Part shown: positions 18,361 to 50,553 of the stretch, piece after piece
How positions within the stretch are numbered: position 1 is the stretch's first letter
How the letters are laid out: each line of letters begins with the position of its first letter
Source: a virus
Taxonomy: Duplodnaviria; Caudoviricetes
Virus record (IMG/VR): IMGVR_UViG_3300032006_000008
Location: 1-55,290 of that record
Length of the DNA: 55,290 nucleotides
Direction: 5' to 3' (one strand)
Translations under genes and position numbers: made by a program
The notes under the pieces: generated by a model
The model's database searches: none
What the model was told of the DNA's origin: nothing
Seen by the model: the letters and a program-made list of their open reading frames with translations, nothing else

Positions 18361-18392
18361 TCCTCCAATTGCGGGGGAGATTGTCTAAAAAA

Positions 18393-18452: not shown

Positions 18453-18477
18453 TTTATACTACTAAAATCAAAATAAC

Positions 18478-18690: not shown

Positions 18691-18692
18691 CT

Positions 18693-31961: not shown

Positions 31962-32121
31962 AGACTTATGGTTAAGAAAATTATTAAAACTAGCTCAAGA
32001 GAATATGGAAGAAGCTCTTCAGAAATCGTCTATAAATGAATGGGGGGAGTCTAAGGTTTATATGAAAATGGTTCAGCAAAGACTAAACGCTATGTCAGAC
32101 TACATTAAAGCAAAGAATTAA
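31954..32121 (+). CDS. Hypothetical protein, last + strand gene
   Basis: GAGGT RBS; its stop overlaps the stop of the convergent gene (TTAA). Confidence 0.55.
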   Translation: MSKDLWLRKLLKLAQENMEEALQKSSINEWGESKVYMKMVQQRLNAMSDYIKAKN

Positions 32122-35100
32122 TAGTCTTCATCTATAGTCTCATAAATGTCGTTCATCACATTTGCTCCTGGAACATAAGCTCTTAAACCTGCCCATCCCT
32201 CTCCTTTTACTAAGGATAATAATACGTTTACAATAACAGGTAGGAAAAAGAACTGCCAATCTTTGACATATTGCTCTTCTTCATCTTCTGTCATTTGTCC
32301 AGCCACTAATAATCCCAACATTAGTGTTCTTAAAATAAATGATATAGTTACAGATTGAGCACCCCTTACACTATTTCCCATAGGCATTGGTAAAAATCTT
32401 CTTAATATAGAATTAGCAAGAGAAATTCCAGGAGCAAATGTAGATAAAACAGTCAATACTGACATACCTCCTCTAATAGCTAAAAATGTAAACATTCTCT
32501 CAGCAGATAAATCAAATTTAGGATTGCCACTAGCTATTAAATCACCATATCCTAATTTCTCTCCTGTTAATGTTCTAGTAACTTTTCTTTTGCCAGCTGT
32601 AAGTAGCCTAGAACTCCAGCCTGGAACATGAAAAAATCCCCCACTCTCAGAAAAGAATTGCTCCATTATATTGTACTCTCTGACCCATTGAGCAAATGTA
32701 TAGGTTTTGAATTGAAAACCTACCACCCCAAATAACCCACCAAACATCTTTGGAAAATATTCCCTAGACATACCAAACATAGTATTTTTAACATTGACCC
32801 TAGCCATTATTAATGAAGGGGCTTGTTTATATTTATTACCCTCCTTATTTGCGTCAAGTTGTCCTAGTTTCTCTGCTAGTAACATACCTTGAATAGCAGC
32901 CCTCCTTCTCATAAATAATTCCACACCACTAAAAGTGAATAAAGATTTTGCACTTTCACTAATTTGCCACGTTAACATCCATGATGCTAACTGATTAATC
33001 TGGCTACTATTTAAACTCTGGTTTAAATCCTTAATCCTTTTCTTTAAAATTAAAATTTCTTTTCTAGTAGCTACCGCTTCTCTAATATCATTTTCTTTTA
33101 TATTATCTATATTTTCTTTCTTAGAAAGAATTTTCTTTAAATGATTCATTTGCAACCAAAAAGCTGCTCTTTGTTTCCTTAATGCTTCATAATTATCTTG
33201 GTCTTTTTGTGGAAGTAGTCTCATTAACCATCTATCTATTCCAGTATTCTTGTTTATAAAATCTTTTTTATTCATCTTTAAAAGAGACCAATTGAGCCTT
33301 GCACTCATAAAAGTATGCCACGGGGTTGATGATTCATCCCCACCTGCCATATAATCAGTATAAGCTGTAATTAAATCATCAACTCCACTAGCTTCTACAG
33401 CGTCTAATACTTCAGCGTCTTTCATCATTCCCCTAACAGCTAGAGTGTCTCTAAATCCCCAGTCTTCTATTAGACTTTCCATTTGAGTCATGTTTGTAAT
33501 GGATGATAGCCAATTCAAAACATTACCAGAAACCCAGTTATTATGGTTAGATGCCCACTTAGAAACTTGCCTTGATGTTACTGGAGAAGTTTGTCCGTTT
33601 CTACCTCTAATGGCATTAATCCTATCAGCTGATTCTTGAAATCCATACTTAAAACCTAAAAATCCAGCGTCATAAGATAAATCTTTTAGTGATATTTTAG
33701 TTTGATTTATAAGCCATCTTCTCATCTCTGGGCTTTCAATAATTATCATAGCTTTAAGCAGCTCTGCTTTAAGTCTGCTGTACTGAATAGCTGTTACAAA
33801 TCTATTAGTATAATCTCTGTCTAGGTCTATATCTCTTCTTCTATTAAGAGGGTTTGTAAAAGTTTTTCTATGCTTAGTAAAGTGAGACCTAGTGGCTAGT
33901 TTCATTTTTCTTATATTCTTTGGATTGTAAGGGTCATCAAGAGCCAATGTCTTCATGTCTTGCATCCCGTCTCTCATATCTTCTAAGCTTTTTATCTTAG
34001 ATTCTAATCTAGCCTTTCTGTTCATGTGAAAATAAAACTCTTGAGGGGTAACTAGTTGCTCTCCAGTTGATACTCCCTGTTTAAAATCATTTATTATCTC
34101 CTCAGAATCTTGAAGCTCACCTTTTAGTGCGTTTATCATACCTCCTGATTGGGCAATAGCTTCGTCTACATCATCCCAATAAGTATCTTTTGTATATACT
34201 TGTGGTGAATAATTTTGAGTTACTTTTTTAGTGAACGTATCCCATCCTGCGATAGCCCCATCTCTCATAGTTGCAAGATTCGCCGCCATCCCTCCAATGT
34301 CCTCAATATATTCTAATATCTCTTTATAGTCCTCCATAGCATCTTGCTTCATTTTCTTCTCAGCTAGAATCTTAGCTTCATTTAGAATTTTATTAGTCGC
34401 CTCTATTTCCTCCTCTACCATGTTAATAAACTTTGCATTTTGCTCTCTCTTTAACTGGAGAGCTTGCCATATATTATATTGACCCGGATTCTGCGTTTTA
34501 TTATTAATACCAGCTATTTCATCAATTGGCTGTCTTTCTAAGTATTCAAAATCTGAATAACTATCTACATTTTTATTGCTATCACCTATTGTATAATCAT
34601 ACTGAGTATGTTGAGTAGCTTCATGAAATCCTTCTCTCATTCCAGTCCCTTCCCACATACCATCCATCTGAGCCCCAATAGTCGGCACCCACATATATTC
34701 ACCAGTTTGAGGGTCTATTCCACCTCTCCTTATCATGACAGCAGCATAATATTCATGTTGATTATTAGGCTCAGACCCATCCTCATTTCTTTTCATCATT
34801 ACCCAAACAGATTCAACTCCATTTTTTTCTTGCTGATTAATAATCATCTCATGATGACTCGGACCTTGATATGCTTCTCCAAACTCTGTTGTGTATTCTT
34901 TTCTATATGTAGTTAAAAAATCCTTTTCTTCTTCTGTTAAGTTTTGATATAAAGTAGGAACTATATACCTTACCCTTCCATCAGCTAAATCCGATAATAA
35001 ACGAATATAATCATCTCTTATCAAATCTTCTTGTTTCTCTCTGGTTAAGTCATCAAAATGCTTATCAACAACTAATTCTTTGCTAATCCTCTCGGTAACT

Positions 35101-35879
35101 TGCTCCCCTATTACCTCCTCAACAATGGGATAATCATACCTTTCCTTATGCATAGTTCTGAATCTAATGTCTTCTAGATTTTTATAATTCCTTAATGTTG
35201 AGAGAACTCTTTTAGTAAAAAACCCATTAATTTCTCCATAGGCATCAACAAATGGCTGTTGCATATCAAATATTGATTCATTAAGACTTGTTATTTTATC
35301 TAAAATCAGAACACCTGCCCCAGTCTCTTCTTGAGTTGCAACCATTCTAAATATATCCCTTGAATACTCATTCCAGTTCCCAAGCTTCTTCTTTGGTTTT
35401 ACCCTTACAAACCTATCTACCATTTGAGAATATTTTTTTATTAATGGGACATTTAAGTGATTAAGATTCATCAAAGGAAATCCTAGATAATTATAAGACA
35501 TTACATTTACTGCATCTATAATTTGATGATTGGGCATTACAAACAGAGTCTTAGCCATAACATCAGCAGCGTGCTTAGCTAGGTCATTGTATATTTTATA
35601 ATGCAATCTTAGTCTTAATTTCTCACTTTTCAATCTCCCCACCATTACTTTTCTTCTTTTCTTTATCTCTTTTACTCTTTTATAATCTTTTAGAGATTTT
35701 TGTAATAGAAGTTCTTTATCTAAAGCTTTTATTTCTATTTCAAAACCAGTAGATAAATCTTTTGGTTGTCCAATTGACTGGTTTAAAGAACCAAGAATAG
35801 ACGTTGTTAAAGACTTAGCCTCTTCTTTTGTTACTTTAGACTCAAATAAAACGTTACAATAGTCTGCTGCTCTGCTCAT
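32118..35879 (-). CDS. Large internal virion (ejection) protein with C-terminal membrane helices
   Basis: 1253 aa, helical; FGVVGFQFKTY (QFKxY motif of podovirus ejection proteins) and several hydrophobic C-terminal helices; last gene of the late operon. Confidence 0.7.
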   Translation of the reverse strand: MSRAADYCNVLFESKVTKEEAKSLTTSILGSLNQSIGQPKDLSTGFEIEIKALDKELLLQKSLKDYKRVKEIKKRRKVMVGRLKSEKLRLRLHYKIYNDLAKHAADVMAKTLFVMPNHQIIDAVNVMSYNYLGFPLMNLNHLNVPLIKKYSQMVDRFVRVKPKKKLGNWNEYSRDIFRMVATQEETGAGVLILDKITSLNESIFDMQQPFVDAYGEINGFFTKRVLSTLRNYKNLEDIRFRTMHKERYDYPIVEEVIGEQVTERISKELVVDKHFDDLTREKQEDLIRDDYIRLLSDLADGRVRYIVPTLYQNLTEEEKDFLTTYRKEYTTEFGEAYQGPSHHEMIINQQEKNGVESVWVMMKRNEDGSEPNNQHEYYAAVMIRRGGIDPQTGEYMWVPTIGAQMDGMWEGTGMREGFHEATQHTQYDYTIGDSNKNVDSYSDFEYLERQPIDEIAGINNKTQNPGQYNIWQALQLKREQNAKFINMVEEEIEATNKILNEAKILAEKKMKQDAMEDYKEILEYIEDIGGMAANLATMRDGAIAGWDTFTKKVTQNYSPQVYTKDTYWDDVDEAIAQSGGMINALKGELQDSEEIINDFKQGVSTGEQLVTPQEFYFHMNRKARLESKIKSLEDMRDGMQDMKTLALDDPYNPKNIRKMKLATRSHFTKHRKTFTNPLNRRRDIDLDRDYTNRFVTAIQYSRLKAELLKAMIIIESPEMRRWLINQTKISLKDLSYDAGFLGFKYGFQESADRINAIRGRNGQTSPVTSRQVSKWASNHNNWVSGNVLNWLSSITNMTQMESLIEDWGFRDTLAVRGMMKDAEVLDAVEASGVDDLITAYTDYMAGGDESSTPWHTFMSARLNWSLLKMNKKDFINKNTGIDRWLMRLLPQKDQDNYEALRKQRAAFWLQMNHLKKILSKKENIDNIKENDIREAVATRKEILILKKRIKDLNQSLNSSQINQLASWMLTWQISESAKSLFTFSGVELFMRRRAAIQGMLLAEKLGQLDANKEGNKYKQAPSLIMARVNVKNTMFGMSREYFPKMFGGLFGVVGFQFKTYTFAQWVREYNIMEQFFSESGGFFHVPGWSSRLLTAGKRKVTRTLTGEKLGYGDLIASGNPKFDLSAERMFTFLAIRGGMSVLTVLSTFAPGISLANSILRRFLPMPMGNSVRGAQSVTISFILRTLMLGLLVAGQMTEDEEEQYVKDWQFFFLPVIVNVLLSLVKGEGWAGLRAYVPGANVMNDIYETIDEDY

Positions 35880-38800
35880 TTTGTTTTACAATTTCCTAAT
35901 TTTTCTAATAATTTATATGAACCATCATCAAATGTTGCTAATTTTATTTTAGCCCCTACAGCAGGCTCTGAATCAGGAGCATCTCTATATACCTCTGCAA
36001 ACTTGCTACCAAACAATCTAAAAAACCTTCCATCAATTAAATCCATTGGTAAAAAATGGCTCACATTTCTTATCCTGTCAACCCTTAGAGAGCCTTCTCC
36101 CCTTAATTTTAATTTCTCAGCCCTTTGAGACAGCTCTTCTTTAGTCGCTTCTATTTTATTTTCTAGATGGTCTATAGTCTCTTTTAATAAAACTGTTTGA
36201 TTATAGGCAGAATCAAGGTTTGATTTTATTCTTTGAAAATTGGCATATTGAGCTTTATTTTTAAAATCTTGAGATGAGAGACCCTTTTTAGAAGTTAAAA
36301 GTTCATAATCACCCTCTTGGGTGAGTTCCATAGAAACACTCTTTCCATAATCAACCATCTGATTACTTACGCCTTGATGTAATTGTAATTGCCCTAAATA
36401 TTCTCTTTTATATCTCTTAAGCTGATTGGATTCTTTCATATTTTCAATTCTAATATCTCTAAACTTTAACCTAAGAGAAGCAGGAATCATGTCTTGTATT
36501 GTAGATGTCCCGCTAAAGAAAGATAGGGAAGAAACAAATCTTGCTCCATCTGATAGTGCATTGAAATGAGGAAGCCACTGAGAAATAAAATGATTATTAA
36601 AAACAACATCATGGTCAATCTTTGCTACATTCAATTCTATTTCATCAATCAAAGTATTTTTTTCATTTACAACTTGAAGTAACATATAAAATTCTTTATT
36701 CATCTTTCTAGCAAATGCAAGACCTGTAACTATATCATTATCTGATAATTCATATTCTTTAACCAAAGCTGAAAGTTTAGCTGCTCCTTCTGGTCCTGGC
36801 TTTCCAACTATAGCCTGCATAGCCATATACCTTGCATTGTCCTCTTGATTTTTTGACATCTGTAAAAAGTTTGGCATATCATCTATCTGATTATCAACCA
36901 TATGTTTCCAAAGAGAAGCGACTGTATCTTCTAAATATGTTGTAGGAACTGTCTTGTCTCCTTCTTTAATATTATTAAATTGAACATCGTTAATAACAAG
37001 AGGTCTTTGAGGTCTTCTTTGAGCTCTCATCTCTTCCATCATTCTTGCATTATAATCTTTAAATACCTTTTTAGGAACTTTTAAATCTAAAGACATAATA
37101 TCTTGAACTTGCTCTGCTACAGTCTTATTAGTTCTATCATAAACAACTTTGCTCATCTCAGTCAGCTTTTCTGCTCCAACATAACTTTGGTCTTCGTCTC
37201 TTCCTTGCCTTACTTCGCTTGTTTTAAAATGATTAACAACTTTTTTTACTAGTGTCTGAGCTTCCTTATGACCAGAGACTATCTCATTACCCTCTTTATC
37301 TATAATCTTAAATGTTCTACTTCTAATAAACGTAACAAAATTTTCTATAACACCTATAGATGTTTGGCGACCATATAAAGTGCTCCACCAAAGAGCTAGT
37401 AATCCTTTTGTACTTTCATCAAAAGAAGCCTGCTGGATAATAGCCATCTCCCTATCGCTTGTTGTCTTTAGATATTTTACTCCATCTATAACAACTATGG
37501 AGTCACCAATCGGAATATTCTCTTGAACAATATCATCACGAAGTGGAGCATAGTCCATTATTACTTCTTCATCAATTGCTCTTTGAGTTAGGATTACATC
37601 TTGATAGTAATGCCCACTAAAATTTATAGCTAAACCTTTATGATTAAGAGAAGACCTCATAGTTCTAGCGTTTTGCACCATGCCGACTTGAGTTCCAGTT
37701 TCAAAATTATTAGCAATTTCTGTCACTACATTTGGGGTGGTTGGAGTAAATACCTTTTGAGGGTCTGCAAATATATCTAAAGGAATTTGATATACCATAC
37801 TTTTATACTCATCAGTATAATCATACTTATCCCCTGATTTCTGCCATTGAAAATCAATTAATTCTTTAGTTAGCTCCCTGTCCCATTTCCTACTAGTTAC
37901 AGCATCTCCGTCAAAATCTTGTTCTAGCATTTTTTTCATAGTATCATGCATAAAGACAACATCCCCATAATCTCTATATAGAAAATGTGCAATTTCTAAC
38001 ATTTGAGGATTTGTAAAGTGCTGAATTGGAAATCTGTAAAACTGTTCCCACCTATCTTTACTTGGGTCTGGTGGATTATTTTTCAGAAAATCATTAATAG
38101 CGTCTACCTGTTTTCTTCTTCCCTCTCTTGTATTGCCCCATTTGTTCCATTTTTCTACAACTTGTTTGGCTTGCCCATATAGATATGCATCAACTACTAT
38201 ATTCCATGAAACATCAAAGGGGGTTGCTCCATATTGATGAGGTTCTAATATGCCATGAAAATCTGGAATAACATGACTATAATTAGCAGCTTGAAAGCGA
38301 CTTGCTTTTGTAGGCTTCCTTGATTTAACTCTACCTCTAAAAGCTCCATCAACAACAAACCTATTTTTTATCATACCAACTTGAGGGTTAGAAAAATGGC
38401 TATGTAACAATATTGCGAATGAATCTGGGTCTTCTTCTAACATTTCTATAGACTTTGATAAATCAGATTTTGTAATGGTTTGGCTTTTCTGCAAGCTCTT
38501 TAGCCACTTCGCAAGTATATTTGGATTTTCTCTCATAGCAGAAATAGAGTTAAAATAATCTTTTTGATTTGTCTTTACTGCTTCAATTAGCTTATCAAAT
38601 AGAGGTGCTATGTCTGGGTTAGTGGTTATCATATCTTGCCATTGGTCAAACCATTGGAAAGGAGCAGTTCCACTTCCTTTAGAAAAGAAGTTAGAGTTCA
38701 TTAATATTCTAATATCCCCAGGCTCCATATAGTTAACTGTATTAGCAACATCATAGTTACCCTGTGCCATCTTTTTTTCTTCATTTGAAAAGACTTCATC

Positions 38801-41800
38801 CAATGGAATACCTTCAGCAGTTTTTATCTCCACTGAGGTATTATTTTCATTCCATCTAGATGTCCAAATCATTCTATCGCCTGGCTGTGGAGTTCTTGTT
38901 TCATCGCTATATTCATAAACAGTTATTCCAGCAGGAGCTAAAGTATTTAGTCCCTTTACCTGTATATAATCCTCACTATTCTCAGACATTTTTCTATCAA
39001 AAGTTTTTATCCAGCCTGGGAGATTGTCCAACTTATCTTGCTCTGGCATTCTTCCAAGAGGGACTGCTAGTTCAGAAAAGTAATTAGTAGATGATGGCTT
39101 ATTACCATCCCAAATATAATCCCCATTTTCATCCATTAGAGGAATAATTTTCCCAGTCACATCACTTATTGCATATGAGTTTTTATAATCAAACCATAAA
39201 TATGGAAAAGATGTAGCCCCTTCTGCGTTAACACCATCAGCAAACTCATTATTGTATCTTTTAAAATGAGCGGACATAGGATACCCTAGAACTTCATGAA
39301 GAGATTTTGTTCCATGAGTTTTTTGTATCCATCTGTATCTACCAACTATAGCAACAGCTAATTCAACAGCCTCTCCTCTAGCTAAGTTTACATCCTCTTT
39401 CATCTCATCGGCTTGATTTTGCGTTATATTTCCCTTCTCAACTTCTCCATCAAACCAAGCATCTGTATTGTCTTGCTCTCTCGCTATTGTTACATCATCT
39501 ACATCAGAAACACCTATAACTAGAGACTTACCTTTACCTCCCTTACTTGCGACAAGGAAAGCTGGGTATCTCATTTTATTAAATCTTCTATATCCGAATG
39601 CTAATTCCATATTTAATTGGTCTAAAGCATTTTTATCAAGAGTAAAAAATTCATCTTGGAATACCCACAGTTTCCTTAAATCAAACTTTGTTGGGTCGCC
39701 TTCTTGGTATGGATTTTTTTTATGAGCTCTTCTAATTCGTGTAGTATATATATCATTAGCACTTAAAAGGAATACTCTATCATGCATATCAGGGTTAGCT
39801 TCTAAGAAATTAGCTAACACAAAATCAGAATAATTTATCCCATTTACAGGATTAACTTGAGTTTGGCTATGCAATCTCTTGTCTGACTCACCAAGCTTTC
39901 TAGTCCTTCCATCATCTCCTTTTTCAACATTATTTAAAACAAGAGCTCCCCTGTCTCCTCTAGGTATAGAATTTATAATATTGTGATAATGACTGTTTAT
40001 AATATTGTAATTTCTATTAGACTGCTCTTCACTAACATCAACATTAAAAGATTCTTGCAGATATTCATAAAACTCTTCTCTTTCCATTTTGAGATTAGAG
40101 GCTGGTTTTATATAATCACCGCCTTCTTTTTTCCAAGTTCCCTTTCCTCTTGACCAAATATCCCATCTAATATCATTCCAATCATCAATGGTCATCCTCT
40201 CTCCAGAGTATTCTTCTATTAAATTCTTTAAATTCTGAGCATCTTTACCAACTTGTTCTTCTCTTTTATGCTGACCTATCAAATCATCATATGTATCTGG
40301 ATAGTCATCTGCTAGACCTTCTTGATTTTCCCAATCAATATTATCAGTCATATCTCCAACATATCTCTCTAAATCCAGTCTCATAGTCTTAGTGAATGCT
40401 TTACCAAAAGAACCCAAGTCTTCACCAACTGTAAAAAATCTTCTGTTAGATAAGTTTGTAACTCTTCCTATTTCATGACTTTTAGCCCATTTAGAAAACC
40501 AATCTTTTAAAACTTTTGTGTATTTAAATTTAAATCTTAGTTTTCTTATTTGCTTAATTACTCCATTATAGAATCTTTTAAATAATTGTTTTTCAGATAA
40601 TCCAATATTATTATAAGCCTTCTTAAATTCAATCCAAGCTGCTTGAAAATGCTTAGAGGCTGCTACGAAATCACTATCAGGTAATGGATTCATAGCAAAC
40701 TTATTAAGGTCTATTTTGAGTAAAGCTTGAAAAGCTTTTAATATCTCATAAGCTGCTTTTGTAAAATGATTTTGTTTGTCAGTAGAAGATTCTTGATATT
40801 TTTGATTAAATCCTCTTATTCTGTTTAAGAAATTATCAGTACTTCCATATCTTTGCTTAATCGTTTCAATTATCTTATCAACCATCATCTGTCTTTGAGA
40901 ATCATCTTTAAAATTATCATTATACTGACCTAAGAGTTGGTCAATAGCAGTTTCTATTCCAACTCCATCAATATTCTTTTGCTCAAAACTTGTCATAGCT
41001 AACAATGCTTTGGCTAAAGGAGAAAGGCTTTTAAATTCTCTGTCTATCTGGCTAGATTTACTTTTATTTTTTCCAGTCCTATTTTTTATAAATTCTGAAA
41101 CGTCTGTATCTGGTAAAGACTCACTTGCCATAGCTCTATCAAAGTCTGTTGTTCTTCCAGTGTTTTGTTCTCTTTTTTCATCTACGTCTTCTTTAGTATC
41201 TTGACTGACATCAGCTTTCTTTAAATCACCAACCGACATTCCTGTTAGCTCCATCATCTCCTGATATGACATATCCCCCATTCTCTTCGCTCCTCCCAAC
41301 TGAGAAGCATCTACGGTTTCATATTTTGAAGGCTTTTGCTTTTGAGCTGGTGGAGTAGGTGAGCTATCCTGCTCTTGTTTTAGACTTCTTATTGATGAGA
41401 CAATGGCTTTTGCTATTTTTTTCTTGTTTGCTACACTATAAGATAATTCTCCGTTTTTCTTTTTAGCCACAGTTTCATCTTTAAGTAGTCCTTTTTTTAT
41501 AGATGGAAATTCTTCTAATGTATTATTTAATTGAGTAGCTGTTAGCGATGATAAAAATTTTGTAGGATTCTCTTTAGATTCAAGCTCTCCTATTATCTTT
41601 CCTCTTTTTACTTCTTGTGGGTCTTTAGATGGCTTATATGGAGTTCTTTTATTAATGTCATCCCCAAGCTCCTTTTTAACCTTTTCGTATCTCTTTCTAC
41701 CTTCTTCAGTATGTCTATATACTTCTTCATCTAACGCTTGTTCTGCTTTTCTTTCATATTCTTTCTCAGGCTCTTTTTCTGATGGTGCAGTAAATATATT

Positions 41801-44434
41801 TGTTAATTCTTTTTCAAAACTTGTATACTTACTTTCAGCATCGTGTATACCCTCAGTCGCGTCAATAATGGCTTGCTCCTCAGAAAGTCTTTGATTAACA
41901 AGACTATCTACAAAGTCTTTTCCCTTCTTACCTTTGATAATAATCTTTGGGTCACCTTTTTTACTTTGCCCTGTTAAACTACTTCCTAAGCTTCTCCCTT
42001 TTTTAAACCCTAATTCACCAGTAACAAACATTCCAATCATCTCATCTAATTGTCTATTAATAGTATCTTCATCTGCCGCTAGATTTTCATTTGAGGACAG
42101 TGAAGGAAATATTTTCTTTATATACTCTCTTGCTAATATTAATGCATTTTCCTTTGATTGCTCATCCATCTCTTCTAGGATGCCCATGCCGCTTGGGTTC
42201 TTCATAAGTATATTTAATACCTGAGCTCCAACATCCTTATCTTGACTTGATTGCCTACCTCCAATCTCTTGCATAGCTTTAACAACTTCATTATCAGTTC
42301 TTAAGTTTCTATACTCATCTAAATTATATCCTCCGTCTTTAGCTATCTTCTTTAACCACATCCCCCAAGTCATATTGTCAACATGGTCTTCAGACTTAGC
42401 CTCCTCAGACAGATTACTTCCTACTAACTGACCTTGAGTGTAATTTCTTCCAAGAGTTTCTTGTAAATCTTGATTAATTTCCTCATCTAGCTCAGATTCA
42501 ATAGATTGTTTCTTAGCTCTATTAGCAAGAACTCTAATACCACCTGCTCCCACTCCAAAGACACCACCACCTAATAGTCCCCCAAATCCCTCAGCGAACA
42601 TTTGTTGCTTGTCAAACACATCATCAAACGTCTGGTCAGGTCTAACTTGTCCCAATGCTACAGCATTTTGAAATCTTTCATTAATTCCCTGAAAGACTTC
42701 TTCAACCATCTCTATTGTACCTTGCTTGAGAATATTGTATGCAAAATCTGCGTCTCTATTTTTCCATCCTTGTCTAAATCTATTCTTATTTGAGTTCCAT
42801 GCAGTCCTAGCTATTCCCTTTTTAGGAATAGAAGCCCTAGCTGCTTTAGCAATTGAAGGGATTCTTAACATCTCTAACATTGTATTAACAACACCAGTCT
42901 GAAGCCAAGCTGTGGAAGCTAAATCTAATGCCTCCATCTCTGTAAGAGTTCCATCCTTGACTTCTTTTTCCATGAGCTCTCCAAAGACTTCATCAAAAGA
43001 ACCTCCAGCTTGTTGACTAAACATAAATGCACTTGACAATGCATAAACAGTTGGACTCTTAGCTGTTAGTGAGTTAACAACCATAGCTACAGACGCAACC
43101 ATTGAAGGAGCTGATGTGATTAGTAAGTCTCTACCCCATGCCCATGTTTTACCATCTCCATCTAATATATCAGAGAACTTTTGACCAATTCCTCTCTCCA
43201 TCATGTCTTGTTGAAAAAGTGCATAAGCTAGAGCCTCAGGGTCTTTTTGAATAGCAGCTTCCATCTCAGCTCTTGCTAGTTTGTTTGCCTCCTTTAACCC
43301 TCCGTAACTCCAATCCTTCCCAAGCATCATCCCAACTGATTTCATCAAATTTGGAGCTTTTTTCATTTGAGCGAGCTTTTCTTCTGGCTCTAGTATATAT
43401 CTAATGTTTTCTGGCGAGAGTTCGTCTTTTGTAGCTGTTTCAAGTTTTTGTACTTTAATATTTAAACTAGCTTTGAATTGGTCTTCTAATGCTTTATCAT
43501 TTAATAGAAAATTATCATGGGAAGAACCACCATCATCTTTCTTTACCTCTTCCTCTTCTCTTACTTTATTTTGTAAAGAATCATAGACTGTAGAATCTGG
43601 AACAGACTGAAATGATTTTTCATCAATTCCTAGCATATTAGCTAAGTCTTTAGATATAATGTGACCACTACCTGTTCTAAAGTTATTTTCATCCTCAGAT
43701 TGCATAGTAATAGCTGGAACATTTATTGTTTCCATACTATCTATTCTGCCAGATGATTCTGCAATCATAACAGCTTTAGCTGTATCAGCGTCTTCTCCAA
43801 ACATCTCATCTATATGATTTAGATACTTTTCATCTAATCCATATGTTTTAGCTATTGTAGTGTTGTCTAGACCAAGAAACGGCTTATGAAGACCCTCTCT
43901 ATGCGTTGTCCACCTTTTCCATCCTTCTTTCTTTTTTAATCTAGATGCATATTCAATATTTTGCTCTGGGGTCATATCCGATGGAGGAACAAACTTTCCC
44001 CAGACTAATTTTTGATTATCTACACCTTGATAATGGTCATTTATTTGAAATAATCCATGACTATGGGTTTTTTTGAGATTTTTCTTAGGGTCAGGACCTT
44101 CGGGTGTAAAGTCTCCATAAATACCACTCTGTAAATTTTCCCAGTGCTCTCTTAATGATACAGTATTTTGAGCATTATGAGCCTGCAAAGCTTGCCCTCC
44201 ACTTCTAAGTGGGGTAGCTAAGTCTACATTACCAAATGCTCTTCTCCAGTCAGGACCGTAAGAATCTAGACCTCTGACTATTTCTTCTGCTTTTTCAGGG
44301 GATTGGTCTTGTAGAAGCTGTATTACAACTTCTCTATCTGGCTTATTCTGAGCTTGTGAAAGAGTCCAAAAACCGGTTTCTACATATTGTCCTCTTGCCC
44401 AACTAGCTAATTCCTGGAGTGAATATCCATTCAT
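35876..44434 (-). CDS. Giant virion protein: permuted lysozyme/SLT domain, membrane segment and two-barrel virion RNA polymerase
   Basis: 2852 aa; GLFQIN (aa127) and AESSG (E226); GFGGLLGGGVFGVGAGG; WDG (D1776), IK (K1810), VKG (K1827); YRFP (R2134); QDFDGD (D2173-D2177); VGMVQN; QASFDESTK. Confidence 0.8.
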   Translation of the reverse strand: MNGYSLQELASWARGQYVETGFWTLSQAQNKPDREVVIQLLQDQSPEKAEEIVRGLDSYGPDWRRAFGNVDLATPLRSGGQALQAHNAQNTVSLREHWENLQSGIYGDFTPEGPDPKKNLKKTHSHGLFQINDHYQGVDNQKLVWGKFVPPSDMTPEQNIEYASRLKKKEGWKRWTTHREGLHKPFLGLDNTTIAKTYGLDEKYLNHIDEMFGEDADTAKAVMIAESSGRIDSMETINVPAITMQSEDENNFRTGSGHIISKDLANMLGIDEKSFQSVPDSTVYDSLQNKVREEEEVKKDDGGSSHDNFLLNDKALEDQFKASLNIKVQKLETATKDELSPENIRYILEPEEKLAQMKKAPNLMKSVGMMLGKDWSYGGLKEANKLARAEMEAAIQKDPEALAYALFQQDMMERGIGQKFSDILDGDGKTWAWGRDLLITSAPSMVASVAMVVNSLTAKSPTVYALSSAFMFSQQAGGSFDEVFGELMEKEVKDGTLTEMEALDLASTAWLQTGVVNTMLEMLRIPSIAKAARASIPKKGIARTAWNSNKNRFRQGWKNRDADFAYNILKQGTIEMVEEVFQGINERFQNAVALGQVRPDQTFDDVFDKQQMFAEGFGGLLGGGVFGVGAGGIRVLANRAKKQSIESELDEEINQDLQETLGRNYTQGQLVGSNLSEEAKSEDHVDNMTWGMWLKKIAKDGGYNLDEYRNLRTDNEVVKAMQEIGGRQSSQDKDVGAQVLNILMKNPSGMGILEEMDEQSKENALILAREYIKKIFPSLSSNENLAADEDTINRQLDEMIGMFVTGELGFKKGRSLGSSLTGQSKKGDPKIIIKGKKGKDFVDSLVNQRLSEEQAIIDATEGIHDAESKYTSFEKELTNIFTAPSEKEPEKEYERKAEQALDEEVYRHTEEGRKRYEKVKKELGDDINKRTPYKPSKDPQEVKRGKIIGELESKENPTKFLSSLTATQLNNTLEEFPSIKKGLLKDETVAKKKNGELSYSVANKKKIAKAIVSSIRSLKQEQDSSPTPPAQKQKPSKYETVDASQLGGAKRMGDMSYQEMMELTGMSVGDLKKADVSQDTKEDVDEKREQNTGRTTDFDRAMASESLPDTDVSEFIKNRTGKNKSKSSQIDREFKSLSPLAKALLAMTSFEQKNIDGVGIETAIDQLLGQYNDNFKDDSQRQMMVDKIIETIKQRYGSTDNFLNRIRGFNQKYQESSTDKQNHFTKAAYEILKAFQALLKIDLNKFAMNPLPDSDFVAASKHFQAAWIEFKKAYNNIGLSEKQLFKRFYNGVIKQIRKLRFKFKYTKVLKDWFSKWAKSHEIGRVTNLSNRRFFTVGEDLGSFGKAFTKTMRLDLERYVGDMTDNIDWENQEGLADDYPDTYDDLIGQHKREEQVGKDAQNLKNLIEEYSGERMTIDDWNDIRWDIWSRGKGTWKKEGGDYIKPASNLKMEREEFYEYLQESFNVDVSEEQSNRNYNIINSHYHNIINSIPRGDRGALVLNNVEKGDDGRTRKLGESDKRLHSQTQVNPVNGINYSDFVLANFLEANPDMHDRVFLLSANDIYTTRIRRAHKKNPYQEGDPTKFDLRKLWVFQDEFFTLDKNALDQLNMELAFGYRRFNKMRYPAFLVASKGGKGKSLVIGVSDVDDVTIAREQDNTDAWFDGEVEKGNITQNQADEMKEDVNLARGEAVELAVAIVGRYRWIQKTHGTKSLHEVLGYPMSAHFKRYNNEFADGVNAEGATSFPYLWFDYKNSYAISDVTGKIIPLMDENGDYIWDGNKPSSTNYFSELAVPLGRMPEQDKLDNLPGWIKTFDRKMSENSEDYIQVKGLNTLAPAGITVYEYSDETRTPQPGDRMIWTSRWNENNTSVEIKTAEGIPLDEVFSNEEKKMAQGNYDVANTVNYMEPGDIRILMNSNFFSKGSGTAPFQWFDQWQDMITTNPDIAPLFDKLIEAVKTNQKDYFNSISAMRENPNILAKWLKSLQKSQTITKSDLSKSIEMLEEDPDSFAILLHSHFSNPQVGMIKNRFVVDGAFRGRVKSRKPTKASRFQAANYSHVIPDFHGILEPHQYGATPFDVSWNIVVDAYLYGQAKQVVEKWNKWGNTREGRRKQVDAINDFLKNNPPDPSKDRWEQFYRFPIQHFTNPQMLEIAHFLYRDYGDVVFMHDTMKKMLEQDFDGDAVTSRKWDRELTKELIDFQWQKSGDKYDYTDEYKSMVYQIPLDIFADPQKVFTPTTPNVVTEIANNFETGTQVGMVQNARTMRSSLNHKGLAINFSGHYYQDVILTQRAIDEEVIMDYAPLRDDIVQENIPIGDSIVVIDGVKYLKTTSDREMAIIQQASFDESTKGLLALWWSTLYGRQTSIGVIENFVTFIRSRTFKIIDKEGNEIVSGHKEAQTLVKKVVNHFKTSEVRQGRDEDQSYVGAEKLTEMSKVVYDRTNKTVAEQVQDIMSLDLKVPKKVFKDYNARMMEEMRAQRRPQRPLVINDVQFNNIKEGDKTVPTTYLEDTVASLWKHMVDNQIDDMPNFLQMSKNQEDNARYMAMQAIVGKPGPEGAAKLSALVKEYELSDNDIVTGLAFARKMNKEFYMLLQVVNEKNTLIDEIELNVAKIDHDVVFNNHFISQWLPHFNALSDGARFVSSLSFFSGTSTIQDMIPASLRLKFRDIRIENMKESNQLKRYKREYLGQLQLHQGVSNQMVDYGKSVSMELTQEGDYELLTSKKGLSSQDFKNKAQYANFQRIKSNLDSAYNQTVLLKETIDHLENKIEATKEELSQRAEKLKLRGEGSLRVDRIRNVSHFLPMDLIDGRFFRLFGSKFAEVYRDAPDSEPAVGAKIKLATFDDGSYKLLEKLGNCKTK

Positions 44435-44442
44435 AAAATTAT

Positions 44443-45705
44443 TTACTTGGTTGGTATATTAATATTTGTAGGTAATCCCGTACCACTTCCACCAACTGCA
44501 TTTTTTACTTGTAATAAGGGTGAACCAAACATTTTTTCATATTCTTCGTTAATTCTTCTTAAATAATCCACGTAAGCCTGTACTCCTCTAGCCACATTAG
44601 TGCTTTCTTTTCCATATTCTTTAACATTCAAATCCATCCATCCGCCTCCTGTAATTTCTATTTTAAGTTTTTCCAGCTCATCTGGGTCTGCAATTAAGCT
44701 CTTAACGTCTCCATCGTATCCCAATTGATTTGCAAATTGTCTAAGAGATTCCACTCTTTGATTAAACATAGTTTGCCACGGCTTCTGATTCTGAAAAACT
44801 TCAGGCTTTGAGCCATGAAAAGATTTGCTAATATTTTGATGACTGCTAACAAAAGAAGAAAGTTCTTCATGGTCTTTTAGAAGTTTACTACTACTTATAG
44901 GCTCTAGAGCCCCAGTAAGGATAGATTCTGAAGCTTTTATATTACTAATTCTAGCTGTTGTCTCAGCCGCTAAGAGTTTATCTCTAATTTTTATATCACC
45001 AATAGCTTTTTTAGCTTGTTCAAAATCTCCCGCCTCAACATAGCCTGCAACATTGTTTAACCAATCTTGTAAAGTCTGACCTTGAAATGGAACAGCTGCT
45101 CCCTTTGCTTTCATATCAACTTGTACGCCTTTGATTTCCTTATCCAAGTCATGTTTACCTAAGAAAGTAACAACGTCAGCAACATCTTTTAAGTCGCTTA
45201 GCTCTTCATTTAAAAACTTTCTTTGTTGAATGTTAAATAAATTTGCATTTTTGTTTAACATTTTATGTACGTTATCTAAAGATTTTACAGCATCATTATC
45301 AGAATAGAATCCAGACTTAGCTTGCTTCTCTAATGCATAAATACTATCAACTGCTTTTATAAACTCATTACTAACTTGCTCCTTCTTTTCTGATACTGGC
45401 TTTATTCCTCTTTCATAGTATCCAGAAATAGCTTCATAGAATGGCTTTATAACAAGGTTGTCACGATATTCTCCATCATCATTCAACGCTAAAGCTTTTA
45501 GACCATCCATAATGCCTTCATTAACATCAATAGGATTGTCAAAGTCTAGTTTATTTGCTAATGTATTCATCCTAACAGATAAATCATCTCTTAGTGCATT
45601 GTCTTTTGTAAACTGACCCATAGCTTGTAAGAGATAAAACCCCTTGTAAGCTAAATTTAGCAAACTTGTTTCTTGTATATCTATATCATATTTTCCACTT
45701 GCCAT
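44443..45705 (-). CDS. Putative internal virion/ejection protein
   Basis: 420 aa, helical, Cys-free, in the ejection operon. Confidence 0.55.
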   Translation of the reverse strand: MASGKYDIDIQETSLLNLAYKGFYLLQAMGQFTKDNALRDDLSVRMNTLANKLDFDNPIDVNEGIMDGLKALALNDDGEYRDNLVIKPFYEAISGYYERGIKPVSEKKEQVSNEFIKAVDSIYALEKQAKSGFYSDNDAVKSLDNVHKMLNKNANLFNIQQRKFLNEELSDLKDVADVVTFLGKHDLDKEIKGVQVDMKAKGAAVPFQGQTLQDWLNNVAGYVEAGDFEQAKKAIGDIKIRDKLLAAETTARISNIKASESILTGALEPISSSKLLKDHEELSSFVSSHQNISKSFHGSKPEVFQNQKPWQTMFNQRVESLRQFANQLGYDGDVKSLIADPDELEKLKIEITGGGWMDLNVKEYGKESTNVARGVQAYVDYLRRINEEYEKMFGSPLLQVKNAVGGSGTGLPTNINIPTK

Positions 45706-46433
45706 TATGATTGTTCCATTTGTTCTACTTGCATAAGTCTATCAAAGAAGTCATCCATCCATTGTTGTCTCTGACCATAAACATCTTGTTCAAAACCTAT
45801 AGCTGCTTGTTTTGCCTCAAAGTCTAAACTAGTTATAGCGTCATCTAAAGTTCCTAATTTAGCTTCAGCTTGTCCCATCATTTGATTTTGCTGTCCATAT
45901 ATTCCTGTTTGTGTAGTTTGAGACTGGAATCTATCTGCGAAAGTTCCACCTCTTAATCCACCAACTTGCTGTGACCTCTGCGTTGAAGCTTGATTTAGTT
46001 TAAATGATTCAGTCTCACCTGAGCGCATTACATTTTCTAAATTCATATCTAGACCACTCATTAATGAGCCTCTCTGTCTAGCAATTCCTTGTTTCTTTAA
46101 TTCTGTTTTCTCCTGCTCAATACCAAATAAATCTTTTAAGAAAAACTCCTCTTGAGGGTCATATTCCATTCCCTCAAAATATTTTCTCATATCAGAGTCT
46201 ACGCCATACTTTTTAAACAAATCCTCAAGGTTAAGATTAAATTTATCTTGCCAATCAAAATTAGGCATTCCCTCTACATCGCTTTGAGGATTAGTATCAT
46301 CATCGCCTCTTTGGTCTTTATTCCACTGAGCTAACCAATCTGAAGCTTCATTTTTAGTTGAAAACGATATAACCATCTCGCTATCATCATTAAAAACTCC
46401 CCATACTCCAGGTTCTACTTCTTTTATATGCAT
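45705..46433 (-). CDS. Putative internal virion/ejection protein
   Basis: 242 aa, Q/E/D-rich helical, GGLRGG, Cys-free. Confidence 0.55.
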   Translation of the reverse strand: MHIKEVEPGVWGVFNDDSEMVISFSTKNEASDWLAQWNKDQRGDDDTNPQSDVEGMPNFDWQDKFNLNLEDLFKKYGVDSDMRKYFEGMEYDPQEEFFLKDLFGIEQEKTELKKQGIARQRGSLMSGLDMNLENVMRSGETESFKLNQASTQRSQQVGGLRGGTFADRFQSQTTQTGIYGQQNQMMGQAEAKLGTLDDAITSLDFEAKQAAIGFEQDVYGQRQQWMDDFFDRLMQVEQMEQS

Positions 46434-46437
46434 TTAT

Positions 46438-47463
46438 TTATACCTTTATAGAAGGATTTTTAAGCCATTCTTTAAACAATACATCACCACCCAAGTCTTC
46501 ATACATTCCACCTCTAGATACAAAGCTACTATCAGAGTGAGTATATCCACCTTGCCCTTTAGATGCTAGGGTTTTTATATCATCAACAAGAGATTGTCCT
46601 GTAAATCCCTTTTGAGAAGATATGAATCTATTCTGAGCAGAACTTCCTGTATAATTACTAGAACTAGCTACATTAGTTGGACTAGAGGATGTAACAGTTT
46701 GAGGTGATGAGCCAGATGTAATACTTGCTGTATCTGTAGTTCCAACCATTTGTTGTGTTTTTTCTTGCATATTTTTAATCCACTGGTCATAGTCTCCAAT
46801 AAAGCCTGCCTTCTTACTTCTTTCATATGACTCTAGAAGAGTAGTGTCCTTTACAGCTAGCTCTGCTAAGTCTTCTTTTGGAGCACTCCCCCAAGCTGGC
46901 GTTCCAGATGCTCCTCCCCATTTTGAAAATGGTTTACTTTGTGTAATCTTATCACTTACTCCCATATCTTTTAATTTATCACCAGCAGCTGCTCCTCCAC
47001 CAGTTGTCCATCCAGCTATTACAGCAGTTGTCATAGCATTCATTCTAGCACTTTTCTCTATAGCTTCATCAGTAGCTTTAAAACTAGCAGCTTGACTTTC
47101 TTTACTCTTTCTCATTAATCCACCCTGTAGGGCTTTCATTTTTGAAAGTTTTGTTTTTTCAGTTGCATCCGCTAGACCTCTTCCTAAGAGACTTCCACCA
47201 TAAGAACCTCCCCCCATAGCCGCTGCTGTAGCAGCCCACCCTAAAGGATTAGAGGCTAAAATAGCTCCAGTTACAAGAGTACCGGCAGCCGCTCCTATGT
47301 TACTCCACAAACTTTTCTTTTTGCCTTTCTCAGCGGCTTCAGCGGCTTGTTCTTCCAATTGAGTTATAGTCTCCAGAGCATCTTTATTTAGAAGTCTTTT
47401 TCCATACTGCTTCCCTTTGTACTCTTTAACTTCTTTTACTTGTTTATTTTCAATGTCTGCCAT
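46438..47463 (-). CDS. Putative ejection protein (P22 gp7/T7 gp14-like, G/A-rich membrane segment)
   Basis: IGAAAGTLVTGAILASNPLGWAATAAAMGGG glycine-zipper-like segment; first gene after the promoter. Confidence 0.6.
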   Translation of the reverse strand: MADIENKQVKEVKEYKGKQYGKRLLNKDALETITQLEEQAAEAAEKGKKKSLWSNIGAAAGTLVTGAILASNPLGWAATAAAMGGGSYGGSLLGRGLADATEKTKLSKMKALQGGLMRKSKESQAASFKATDEAIEKSARMNAMTTAVIAGWTTGGGAAAGDKLKDMGVSDKITQSKPFSKWGGASGTPAWGSAPKEDLAELAVKDTTLLESYERSKKAGFIGDYDQWIKNMQEKTQQMVGTTDTASITSGSSPQTVTSSSPTNVASSSNYTGSSAQNRFISSQKGFTGQSLVDDIKTLASKGQGGYTHSDSSFVSRGGMYEDLGGDVLFKEWLKNPSIKV

Positions 47464-50500: not shown

Positions 50501-50553
50501 ATTAAAGAGCCCTCCGAAGGTGTAAAATCTAGAATATCAAATTCTACACTCAT
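47518..50553 (-). CDS. Tail fibre protein with C-terminal S74 chaperone
   Basis: 1011 aa; repeated (I/C)G(G)WxI motifs; SDSSVKNTI...GFIAQDVE..IP...LDY followed by a coiled coil. Confidence 0.85.
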   Translation of the reverse strand: MSVEFDILDFTPSEGSLMNGECVLIADAGEYKRITKIHEETFVENLNLNDEDSENSGNSSGNDSTDTNTTSNLEFSNGNIIISSEESYFQVRDDNDVIRAQLGQVTTDNFGLKVNKSSGAEIFGLYGSTANLCGWNIDENAISKVSGNDYVKLDTSSSQPRLEIAQNNVVRLKAGQLDSDKYGLKIWNASNDVLMEISDGDIAADTANIGGWDITSSSLKKGTNIILDATNKAISINNATFGNSGLQLQYNSGTPRVYFGDGSNAFFKYDGSKITWKAANAELDTDGKLSITAATIGGWNIGSNEISSSSNAAHKRIFLNPSDHRVEVRNTSNAAVVSMGYLGGLAKTSGSGNWADTDYGFWIKQGDTAKIDGDVEYKDGAFLVANEGSFNVADSSNTVIKLGTISNERGLFIGSDLDGTPSVKAKFTNGGFRVGAQSGNDDYIEYDTTNGLKVSTITATDGSIGGWTIDGDGIFRGTRVNSGNYTGGAAHMTIGAGYISAYKFRLDSDGSAHFKGTIDSATTGTIDGGTMTIQNINATNITSGTITGRTLQTASSGQRVVVDGTNNEIQFYDSSNLVMKLDSDVISFNTGISDVPGSIASSGGSAKPGLVFSNNGTIVLSSDNYIDGNRVRYENGQGVFIDSVSASGISQGGVEWADLTFYSQVTGAAVVQNTNTGTGPVYAGYFKATHAGSGTPYGIYVSDGYTKLEDVYVDGKVKQSGTENPLNYYEESTTAYPTLSLWDTSDSSYAQPALALITRGTNSNGTIPSGHDMGGIYFVNCTDHYGVGDWRGDKIRAMIDTYVTSDGYWSAGVDMQFWTAAANGEKTKRMTLDEHGHLGIGVNPVYFLHTSASVNDYVSVIENTHSTGGGMVIKGGDTSSHIILRLDDKDGSSHFYFKADGTTSPSNISDSSVKNTISNYTGDALTDLAKLTPKTFKFNSQDWNTNLGFIAQDVESVIPSLIQYVDDPSERDGQKKHLDYTGITTMNTSAIMQLLAKVEELENKVAILENA

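What the first reader, a model, noticed from the sequence alone, without database searches (positions are those of the whole stretch)
35850..35895. Only two cysteines in ~5100 aa of ejection proteins, facing each other across one gene junction
Seen (manual count): the five ejection-operon proteins (341+242+420+2852+1253 = 5108 aa) contain only two Cys. One is C2849 of the RNAP protein (...KLGNCKTK*, codon 35888-35890). The other is C8 of the next protein (MSRAADYC..., codon 35856-35858). The genes are ATGA-coupled. Inference: a tail-to-head disulfide links the two proteins in the oxidised virion, so they are threaded through the portal/tail as one chain and uncoupled in the reducing cytoplasm. 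This would be a redox-cleavable ejection/delivery linker for the RNAP.
Basis: partly seen in the sequence, partly recalled or inferred. Interest (0 to 1): 0.8.

Follow-up and report, generated by a model that had tools for sequence, protein, structure and literature searches.

The report
Cysteine clasps joining ejected phage proteins
The two lone cysteines at this gene junction belong to a rule seen across crAss-type phages: where the giant injected RNA-polymerase module is split into separate proteins, the cut ends carry one facing cysteine each, most likely forming a disulfide that replaces the missing peptide bond.

Summary
The five operon proteins hold 2 Cys in 5108 aa: C2849 of the 2852-aa RNAP-like protein, three residues before its end, and C8 of the next 1253-aa protein. 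The genes overlap by ATGA.

It is not chance. All 15 distinct junctions I could read, window included, keep both Cys at down to 20% identity. Of 108 non-fused relatives judged complete at the C-end, 106 have a Cys in the last 7 residues, and internal Cys is 0.006%.

Gene architecture predicts the cysteines:
- Three-gene forms carry C-end | N-end + C-end | N-end Cys.
- Whole-module fusions carry none (3 of 3 representatives, at least 2 independent events).
- 10 of 10 named phages sampled follow the rule, including phi14:2 and crAss001.

An unrelated cyanopodophage, A4, shows the same pattern, and cryo-EM shows that pair as a real disulfide (PMC12002296).

Best reading, confidence 0.7: a tail-to-head disulfide concatenates the ejected proteins. 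Threading as one chain and release by cytoplasmic reduction remain inferred. I found no paper describing this for crass-type modules.

The parts
35888..35890 (-). TGT codon of C2849, the only Cys of the 2852-aa RNAP-like protein, three residues before its C-terminus (...LEKLGNCKTK*)
   Evidence: invariant column C1147 of alignment A3
35856..35858 (-). TGT codon of C8, the only Cys of the 1253-aa downstream protein (MSRAADYC...)
   Evidence: C8 is one of 32 invariant columns in A2 (14 sequences, down to 20% identity) and one of 23 in A4 (15 sequences)
35876..35879 (-). ATGA overlap of the stop of the upstream gene with the start of the downstream gene
   Evidence: The geometry is not conserved in relatives (overlaps of 1 to 11 nt, or direct abutment)
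35876..44434 (-). 2852-aa giant virion RNAP-like protein. It corresponds to parts A+B of the crass-type module in one gene
37904..37918 (-). DFDGD motif (aa 2173-2177). The three Asp are invariant in A3
32118..35879 (-). 1253-aa downstream protein (part C of the module), no Pfam or PHROG family
32196..32354 (-). two hydrophobic, transmembrane-like segments (aa 1176-1194 and 1210-1228) near the C-terminus of the 1253-aa protein, the only such segments in the five operon proteins
   Evidence: Kyte-Doolittle scan
44443..47463 (-). three upstream Cys-free proteins (420, 242 and 341 aa) of the same operon
   Evidence: The 420-aa homologs in L001 and L003 also have 0 Cys

Best explanation
C2849 of the RNAP-like protein and C8 of the next protein form an inter-protein disulfide in the mature virion. 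This bond covalently joins the C-terminal tail of one ejected protein to the N-terminal tail of the next. It works as an evolutionary stand-in for a peptide bond. The crass-type module A-B-C can be encoded as one, two or three genes, and every break in the polypeptide is bridged by one facing Cys pair. All other Cys are purged, so no wrong pairings, loops or branches can form. Because both Cys sit within a few residues of the chain ends, the joined product is nearly linear. That suits assembly as a 1:1 unit in the capsid core and passage through the portal and tail in a partly unfolded state. Thiol-reducing systems in the host cytoplasm would then be able to separate the parts.

Shown here: the pattern, its conservation, its polarity, and its covariation with gene fusion and fission.
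Shown by others: the same pattern is a real disulfide in phage A4.
Inferred: that the bond forms in this phage, that the chain is threaded as one, and that it is uncoupled by reduction.
For: 1. Close homologs: 4 of 4 homologs of the 1253-aa protein and 5 of 5 RNAP homologs have exactly one Cys at the same end.
2. Junctions in DNA: 12 of 12 metagenome loci whose junction is visible (of 21 fetched) and 6 of 6 such IMG/VR loci (of 7 fetched) carry both Cys. These make 15 distinct junctions, window included.
3. Representatives below 50% mutual identity: 106 of 108 non-fused proteins judged C-complete have a Cys within the last 7 residues (0 residues after it: 32; 1 after: 58; 2 after: 11; 3 after: 2; 5 after: 2; 6 after: 1). 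There are 12 internal Cys in 189,915 aa.
4. Polarity: 0 of 46 long single-gene forms have a Cys in the first 15 residues. An N-terminal Cys occurs only in split B proteins.
5. Split forms: all 4 loci where the A|B junction is visible (L016, L029, L030, L031) show ...C* | M..C...C* | M..C.... The first genes of L029, L030 and L031 are homologous to the N-terminal part of single-gene forms; for the 222-aa fragment of L016 no homology was found.
6. Fusions: P0066, P0095 and P0109 match both profiles and have 0 Cys in 3651-3902 aa. They fall in two separate places on the tree, each beside a Cys-bearing AB sister, with support 100*. The Cys of P0111 aligns to Ser in P0109.
7. Named phages: 10 of 10 follow the rule at 14 junctions. 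These are crAss001, phi14:2, DAC15, LMMB, crAss002, Fpv1, IAS, Rudgehvirus, cr50_1 and cr271_1. In crAss001, DAC15 and IAS, gene A lies on the opposite strand, so the pattern is not a property of adjacent DNA.
8. Precedent: A4 gp27 has its sole Cys at 1715 of 1717 aa and gp26 has its sole Cys at 5. Cryo-EM shows the Cys1715-Cys5 disulfide (PMC12002296, passages).
9. Both TGT and TGC are used, and the junction geometry varies.
Against: There is no direct evidence for an S-S bond in this phage or in any crass-type phage. Virions assemble in a reducing cytoplasm, so the bond must form late. Gut crassviruses live in an anoxic habitat, although crAss001 virions do contain resolved disulfides in the tail (PMC10172136). 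Gut crassviruses tolerate internal Cys (for example 7 in the LMMB B-C fusion and 14 in cr271_1), so the purge is not absolute. One representative, P0118, lacks the C-terminal Cys. The crAss001 gp50 C-terminal Cys lies 9 residues from the end. The crAss002 case needs the start moved 32 codons. The 'B' class was defined partly by its N-terminal Cys, so its 20-of-20 figure is circular. Only the placement of the 8 doubtful proteins outside the B clade is independent. In A4 the bond sits in a folded ring, which fits a static role as well as a threading role.
Confidence: 0.7

Rival explanations
1. The disulfide exists, but its role is static. It locks the folded internal core (pre-ejectosome) and fixes 1:1 stoichiometry in the capsid. 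The proteins are not pulled through the tail as one chain, and release by reduction has no functional role.
For: In A4 the C-terminal helix of gp27 inserts into a cleft of gp26 in a pentameric ring, and the authors describe the bond as stabilising that assembly (PMC12002296, passages). The fusion/fission covariation fits any need for covalent continuity.
Against: A static clasp does not explain why both Cys are always at the extreme chain ends. It also does not explain why nearly every other Cys is purged from about 190,000 aa. Both features are what a chain that must pass a narrow channel would need.
Confidence: 0.2
2. The two terminal thiols are joined by a shared metal ion or another thiol chemistry rather than by a disulfide.
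For: The comparative pattern shows only that the two thiols belong together. It does not show the chemistry.
Against: Each end offers a single Cys. No conserved His, Asp or second Cys flanks it (contexts such as GNCKTK, YGCG, KEC / MAC, MSKHC, ADYC). The one solved case is a disulfide.
Confidence: 0.05
3. Each terminal Cys acts on its own, for example by bonding to a third virion protein, forming homodimers, or carrying a modification. The facing arrangement is incidental.
For: crAss001 virions contain several other inter-protein disulfides in the tail and portal vertex (PMC10172136, passages).
Against: Both Cys vanish together when the two proteins are fused. The strict polarity argues against independent roles: in all 10 named phages the N-end of the first protein and the C-end of the last carry no Cys, and the same holds for 0 of 46 long forms.
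Confidence: 0.04
4. Chance, general Cys poverty of virion proteins, or a nucleotide signal at the gene junction.
For: Virion proteins of this window are Cys-poor overall (0.31%). Cys suppression in ejection proteins is known for Schitoviridae (PMC11445570).
Against: The pair is conserved where the surrounding sequence is unalignable. It holds for genes on opposite strands. Codon choice and overlap vary.
Confidence: 0.01

Closest known systems
Disulfide Cys1715(gp27)-Cys5(gp26) in the pre-ejectosome of Anabaena cyanopodophage A4 (PMC12002296; passages read)
   Same: A large ejection protein with its sole Cys 3 residues from the C-terminus, and the next gene's product with its sole Cys at position 5 (my count on KF356198). 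The bond is resolved by cryo-EM.
   Different: No detectable sequence relation to the window's proteins (HMMs and hhalign). gp27 has no DxDxD motif. It is a single junction in a single phage. In the passages I read it is not presented as a conserved rule or tied to gene fusion and fission. The SI could not be seen.
Cys suppression in the ejection operon of N4-like phages (Schitoviridae; PMC11445570, passages)
   Same: Giant virion RNAP and companion ejection proteins almost free of Cys (0.00075% against 0.865% for the proteome, per the paper), explained there by passage through the periplasm.
   Different: There the RNAP is one roughly 3,400-3,500-aa chain with no Cys at all. That matches the zero-Cys fused forms here. 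Conserved terminal pairs are not part of that description.
Virion RNAP module of crAss-like phages: phi14:2 gp67-gp66-gp65 and crAss001 gp47-gp50-gp49 (preprint 10.1101/2020.03.07.982082, find plus section 8; PMC10172136, passages)
   Same: A giant DxDxD protein with flanking partners, packaged in the virion, variably fused. My counts show the same terminal-Cys rule in these model phages.
   Different: The window's genome is only 55 kb. Its proteins are linked to crass proteins only indirectly (crAss001 gp47 to P0072, E 1.5e-29; phi14:2 gb076 to P0052, E 5e-10). The papers contain no mention of cysteine (preprint) or of cargo disulfides. The preprint supposes that fused forms are cleaved.
AB-type protein toxins whose two chains are held by one interchain disulfide that is reduced after translocation (recalled textbook knowledge, no call)
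   Same: What it would work like: a covalent tether kept through membrane translocation and released by cytosolic reduction.
   Different: Unrelated proteins. Those chains arise by proteolytic nicking of one precursor, not from separate genes.
Tape-measure-fused virion RNAP of Thermus phage P23-45 (10.1101/2022.12.01.518664; search listing and start of abstract only)
   Same: A virion RNAP kept covalently continuous with a protein of the ejection path.
   Different: The continuity is a peptide bond, in a siphovirus tail.

Membership tests
crass-type virion RNAP module (A-B-C) | giant structural-operon protein with a DxDxD catalytic motif | tested here: met
   DFDGD at aa 2173. D471, D473 and D475 are invariant in A3. 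Relatives carry DFDGD, DYDGD or DWDGD.
crass-type virion RNAP module (A-B-C) | sequence or fold homology of the polymerase part to phi14:2 gp66 (PDB 6VR4) | tested here: inconclusive
   No hit with my HMMs or hhalign. Foldseek lists 6vr4_A at E 0.92 only, from a model with pLDDT 58.
crass-type virion RNAP module (A-B-C) | homology of the flanking parts to crass A and C proteins | tested here: inconclusive
   Indirect only. crAss001 gp47 matches family member P0072 (E 1.5e-29). phi14:2 gb076 matches P0052 (E 5e-10). The A2 profile against phi14:2 gb076 gave nothing.
crass-type virion RNAP module (A-B-C) | gene order: tail and cargo genes, then the giant protein, then the C protein, at the end of the structural block | tested here: met
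   for the window; for crass genomes
crass-type virion RNAP module (A-B-C) | proteins present in virions and injected | not testable with these tools
   needs virion proteomics
terminal inter-ejection-protein disulfide (A4 gp27-gp26 type) | sole Cys within a few residues of the C-terminus of the upstream protein | tested here: met
   C2849 of 2852
terminal inter-ejection-protein disulfide (A4 gp27-gp26 type) | sole Cys within the first few residues of the downstream protein | tested here: met
   C8 of 1253
terminal inter-ejection-protein disulfide (A4 gp27-gp26 type) | an S-S bond actually present in the virion | not testable with these tools
   needs non-reducing gels, MS or cryo-EM
terminal inter-ejection-protein disulfide (A4 gp27-gp26 type) | common descent with A4 gp27 and gp26 | tested here: inconclusive
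   No HMM hit even at E 10. hhalign probability 0.3%. The fold search of the C-protein model gave only helical hairpins.
Cys-suppressed ejection proteins (Schitoviridae type) | Cys frequency far below that of the rest of the proteome | tested here: met
   0.039% against 0.31% (other virion ORFs) and 1.4-1.6% (non-virion ORFs)

The most novel reading that the evidence does not exclude
Ejected phage proteins travel as a covalent 'train'. In crass-type phages, and convergently in A4-like phages, separately encoded proteins are coupled end to end by terminal disulfides into a single chain of roughly 4,100 to 6,900 residues. That chain is fed through the tail in a fixed order. Reduction in the host cytoplasm is the switch that uncouples the cars and releases the self-inhibited RNAP into its active form. 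Peptide bond and disulfide are interchangeable solutions, and evolution has swapped them repeatedly.
Probability: 0.3. Interest if true: 0.9.

Novelty: new variant of a known kind. Interest (0 to 1): 0.78.

Why it matters
How podophages export megadalton amounts of protein in a defined order before or with the DNA is an open question. The crAss001 structure paper says only that the order is probably set by packing and mutual interactions. A conserved covalent coupling gives a concrete mechanism that can be tested in cultured systems (phi14:2, crAss001, DAC15, A4).

It also offers another view of the fused giant 'polyproteins' of some crassviruses: they may work as continuous chains rather than as precursors that need cleavage. 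It explains the extreme Cys purge as protection of a single designed pairing. It gives annotators a simple check for true starts and ends in these giant genes; the crAss002 gp33 start is one example. As a design idea, a redox-cleavable end-to-end tether for delivered cargo is simple and portable.

Tried and rejected
- Complex prediction: the last 200 aa of the RNAP-like protein with the first 200 aa of the 1253-aa protein, both as alignments. No verdict (score 0.02). This is no evidence either way.
- Structure models: RNAP C-part pLDDT 58.3, C protein pLDDT 69.7. Foldseek against PDB gave nothing at E <= 0.001. VIA-align gave only long helical-hairpin matches with Z up to 9.8. Both terminal Cys lie in low-confidence tails.
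- Family and homology searches: Pfam and PHROGs found no family for the five proteins, apart from a sub-threshold SLT_3 hit. PDB sequence search found nothing. tblastn against the phage collection found nothing.
- Locus searches: single-protein and A1 scans of IMG/VR found no relatives. A3 had no conserved stretch to scan with.
- hhalign against phi14:2 gp66 and gp65 and against A4 gp26: nothing.
- Rows dropped: 9 of 21 metagenome loci are cut before the junction; one of them, L017, is also broken by frameshifts. 1 of 7 IMG/VR loci (L028) is cut. 39 of 150 representatives were judged C-terminally incomplete. Duplicates were counted once: L003 = L004, L012 ~ L025, L014 = L026, L018 ~ L029.
- Rejected idea, lipobox or prenylation-type modification: there is no signal peptide, the number of residues after the C-terminal Cys varies from 0 to 6, and the hosts are bacterial.
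For that reason the contigs of the representative proteins could not be examined.
- Supplements closed: Extended Data Tables 2 and 3 of PMC10172136 and the SI of PMC12002296 may hold relevant disulfide lists or alignments that I could not see.
Full report
**Observation.** The minus-strand sequence at 35850-35895 reads ...GGAAATTGTAAAACAAAATGAGCAGAGCAGCAGACTATTGT....
- The 2852-aa ORF (35876-44434) ends ...LEKLGNCKTK*. Its Cys codon is at 35888-35890.
- The 1253-aa ORF (32118-35879) starts MSRAADYC. Its Cys codon is at 35856-35858.
- Its ATG overlaps the upstream TGA.
- A script count gives exactly 2 Cys in the five proteins of 341, 242, 420, 2852 and 1253 aa, 5108 aa in all.
- Other virion-module ORFs of the window have 17 Cys in 5423 aa. 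The terminase/nuclease block has 23 in 1459. The plus-strand ORFs have 32 in 2215.

By composition alone it is already unlikely (binomial P 4.6e-5 at the virion background rate).

**Close relatives.** The protein database held 4 homologs of the 1253-aa protein (45-74% identity) and 5 of the giant protein (44-73% over the last 853 aa).
- All 4 have exactly one Cys, at position 8, 8, 8 or 4.
- All 5 have exactly one Cys, 2 to 4 residues before the end.

**Junctions read in DNA.** A profile scan of metagenome contigs returned 21 loci.
- In 12 of them the junction is visible, and all 12 show both Cys. The upstream gene ends ...C with 0 to 3 further residues. The downstream gene has its Cys at position 3-8 from the likely start.
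- The other 9 are cut before the junction; one of these, L017, is also broken by frameshifts. The visible C-protein fragments of the other 8 contain no Cys.
- A scan of IMG/VR gave 7 loci. The junction is visible in 6, and all 6 show both Cys.
- After removing duplicates (L003 = L004, L012 ~ L025, L014 = L026, L018 ~ L029) there are 15 distinct junctions, the window included.
- In an alignment of 14 C proteins reaching 20% identity, C8 is one of only 32 invariant columns.
- Both TGT and TGC occur, and the stop/start geometry ranges from an 11-nt overlap to direct abutment. The constraint is therefore on the protein.

**Breadth.** I searched a profile of the last 1150 aa of the giant protein against 1.84 billion cluster representatives. 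It found 293 proteins at E <= 0.001, and I examined the best 150.
- 3 are fusions with the C family. 108 were judged complete at the C-end. 39 were judged incomplete.
- Of the 108, 106 have a Cys within the last 7 residues. It is the last residue in 32 and the second-to-last in 58.
- One exception, P0094, is a fragment that stops one or two residues before the expected Cys. The other, P0118, is a very divergent 1213-aa protein.
- The 108 proteins hold 12 internal Cys in 189,915 aa (0.006%).
- None of the 46 long single-gene forms has a Cys in its first 15 residues.

**Architecture predicts the cysteines.** In L016, L029, L030 and L031 the giant protein is split into two genes. The pattern there is ...C* | M..C......C* | M..C... 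For example, L031 reads: a 1019-aa protein with its sole Cys at -5; then MGFNGVC...1525 aa...GPCSGV*; then MAC...1251 aa.
- The first genes of L029, L030 and L031 are homologous to the N-terminal part of single-gene forms. The 222-aa fragment that ends the first gene of L016 gave no such match.
- 18 of the 26 representatives with the length of a split B protein have an N-terminal Cys at position 3-8. The 8 without it all sit next to single-gene forms on the tree. One of them is identical in its core to a 3136-aa protein, so they are 5' fragments and not exceptions.
- Conversely, P0066, P0095 and P0109 (3651-3902 aa) match both the RNAP profile and the C-family profile (E 1e-115 to 1e-123) and contain no Cys at all.
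- On a FastTree of the polymerase core (67 rows) the split forms are one clade. The fusions lie in two places, each beside a Cys-bearing two-gene sister with support 100*. So at least two independent fusions each lost both Cys.
- Where P0111 ends ...NKCKV, the fused P0109 reads ...EKSNV and continues.
- Caveats: FastTree only, long branches, and the B label was defined partly by the Cys itself.

**Model crassviruses.** All 10 named genomes I sampled obey the rule, at 14 junctions.

| Phage | A (or A+B) | B (or B+C) | C |
|---|---|---|---|
| phi14:2 | gb078, 1797 aa, sole Cys is the last residue | gb077 (the crystallised RNAP, DFDID at 1361), Cys only at 3 and 2179 of 2180 | gb076, 1421 aa, sole Cys at 3 |
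| crAss001 | gp47, sole Cys 2339 of 2341 | gp50, Cys 5, 1334 and 2404 of 2412 | gp49, sole Cys 5 |
| DAC15 | sole Cys at -3 | Cys 5 and last residue (plus 3 internal) | Cys 4 (plus 1 internal) |
| IAS virus | last residue (plus 1 internal) | Cys 5 and -3 (plus several internal); gene broken in the record | Cys 5 (plus 6 internal) |
| LMMB | Cys at -2 (plus 2 internal) | B+C fused, starts MSC (plus 7 internal), no C-terminal Cys | fused to B |
| Rudgehvirus jaberico | sole Cys at -2 | B+C fused, starts MAC (plus 3 internal), no C-terminal Cys | fused to B |
| cr271_1 | Cys at -2 (plus 1 internal) | B+C fused, starts MSC (plus 14 internal), no C-terminal Cys | fused to B |
| crAss002 | sole Cys at -2 | B+C fused; fits if gp33 starts at the internal MSC, 32 codons downstream of the annotated start; no C-terminal Cys | fused to B |
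| Fpv1 | A+B fused, sole Cys at -2 | fused to A | starts MAC (plus 1 internal) |
| cr50_1 | A+B fused, Cys at -2 (plus 2 internal) | fused to A | starts MQC (plus 2 internal) |

- In crAss001, DAC15 and IAS, gene A lies on the opposite strand from B. This rules out any explanation based on adjacent DNA.
- In all 10 genomes the N-end of the first protein and the C-end of the last protein carry no Cys.
- Gut phages tolerate some internal Cys. The marine family almost never does.

**Literature.**
- PMC12002296 (passages only) reports a cryo-EM-resolved disulfide in cyanopodophage A4, between Cys1715 of ejection protein gp27 and Cys5 of gp26. In the A-4L genome, gp27 is 1717 aa with that as its only Cys, and gp26 is 1114 aa with Cys5 as its only Cys. 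This is the same pattern in proteins with no detectable similarity to ours.
- PMC11445570 (passages) documents Cys suppression in N4-like ejection proteins and attributes it to passage through the periplasm.
- The phi14:2 preprint (find plus section 8) never mentions cysteine or disulfide. It supposes that fused forms are cleaved.
- The crAss001 atlas (passages) reports disulfides only in the tail and portal-vertex proteins. It estimates that the capsid could hold, for example, 6 copies each of gp47, gp49 and gp50. It ran reduced and non-reduced MS samples without commenting on cargo links.
- Searches found no paper describing terminal Cys or disulfides in crass-type RNAP cargo. Subscription-only papers and supplements were not searchable.

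**Mechanism.** Shown here: a unique, conserved, polar pair of terminal Cys whose presence tracks breaks in the polypeptide. Shown by others: in one phage with this pattern the pair is a disulfide in the virion.

Inferred:
- The pair in this phage is also a disulfide, formed once the termini are docked and the particle leaves the reducing cytoplasm.
- Its value is covalent continuity of the module in the capsid core and during export.
- The extreme terminal position and the purge of other Cys keep the joined chain linear and free of loops, so it can pass the portal and tail partly unfolded.
- Cytoplasmic reductases can then separate the parts.

The 1253-aa protein carries the operon's only two transmembrane-like segments, at its C-end. 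It may be the membrane-engaging end of the chain, but the direction of travel is unknown.

**Identity of the proteins.** The RNAP label rests on the invariant DFDGD motif, on size and position, and on indirect links to crass proteins. Direct profile or fold matches to phi14:2 gp66 were not obtained. The genome is 55 kb and estimated 99% complete, about half the size of a crassvirus.

**Verdict.** The disulfide reading is strongly supported by comparative evidence and by a structural precedent. The threading and release model is plausible but untested. The rule, rather than the single locus, is the finding, and I could not find it described.

Noticed in passing
window 32196-32354 (-): The 1253-aa protein has two hydrophobic, transmembrane-like segments at aa 1176-1194 and 1210-1228. 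They are the only ones in the five operon proteins, and may mark the membrane-inserting end of the module.
   Followed up: partly
window 43904-44083 (-): Weak, sub-threshold Pfam SLT_3 (lysozyme-like) hit at aa 118-177 of the giant protein (E 7e-4, 20.4 bits against a cut-off of 27). This would fit a cell-wall-cutting N-terminal domain.
   Followed up: no
window 1-55290: The record is 55 kb and rated 99% complete, yet it carries a crass-type A+B | C module. Crassvirus genomes are about 90-105 kb. Portal, major head protein and terminase match PHROGs 156, 1328 and 38.
   Followed up: partly
L036 (crAss002) 11088-11190: The annotated start of gp33 is probably 32 codons too far upstream. The internal start gives MSCTPSNP..., matching the MSC/MAC starts of LMMB, cr271_1 and Rudgehvirus.
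   Followed up: partly
L024 (crAss001 gp45), L033 (phi14:2 gb080), L034 (A4 gp28): Other cargo or ejection proteins carry one closely spaced Cys pair each (390/398, 369/378, 1036/1039) and no other Cys. These look like local intrachain pairs or small metal sites.
   Followed up: no
L035 (CrAssphage LMMB) B-C fusion protein, Cys2220: One internal Cys lies 787 residues after the DFDVD motif, near where the B/C junction falls in phi14:2 (818 residues after its motif). It may be a relic of a former junction Cys. It is not conserved in crAss002.
   Followed up: no
L039 (IAS virus) 9812-18794: The B gene appears as two ORFs overlapping by 11 nt in a record with ambiguous bases. This is probably a sequence error rather than a real split. 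The first ORF also has a Cys 4 residues before its end.
   Followed up: no
window 47518-50553 (-): The 1011-aa tail-fibre-like protein has a C-terminal Peptidase_S74 intramolecular chaperone domain (Pfam E 1e-7).
   Followed up: no
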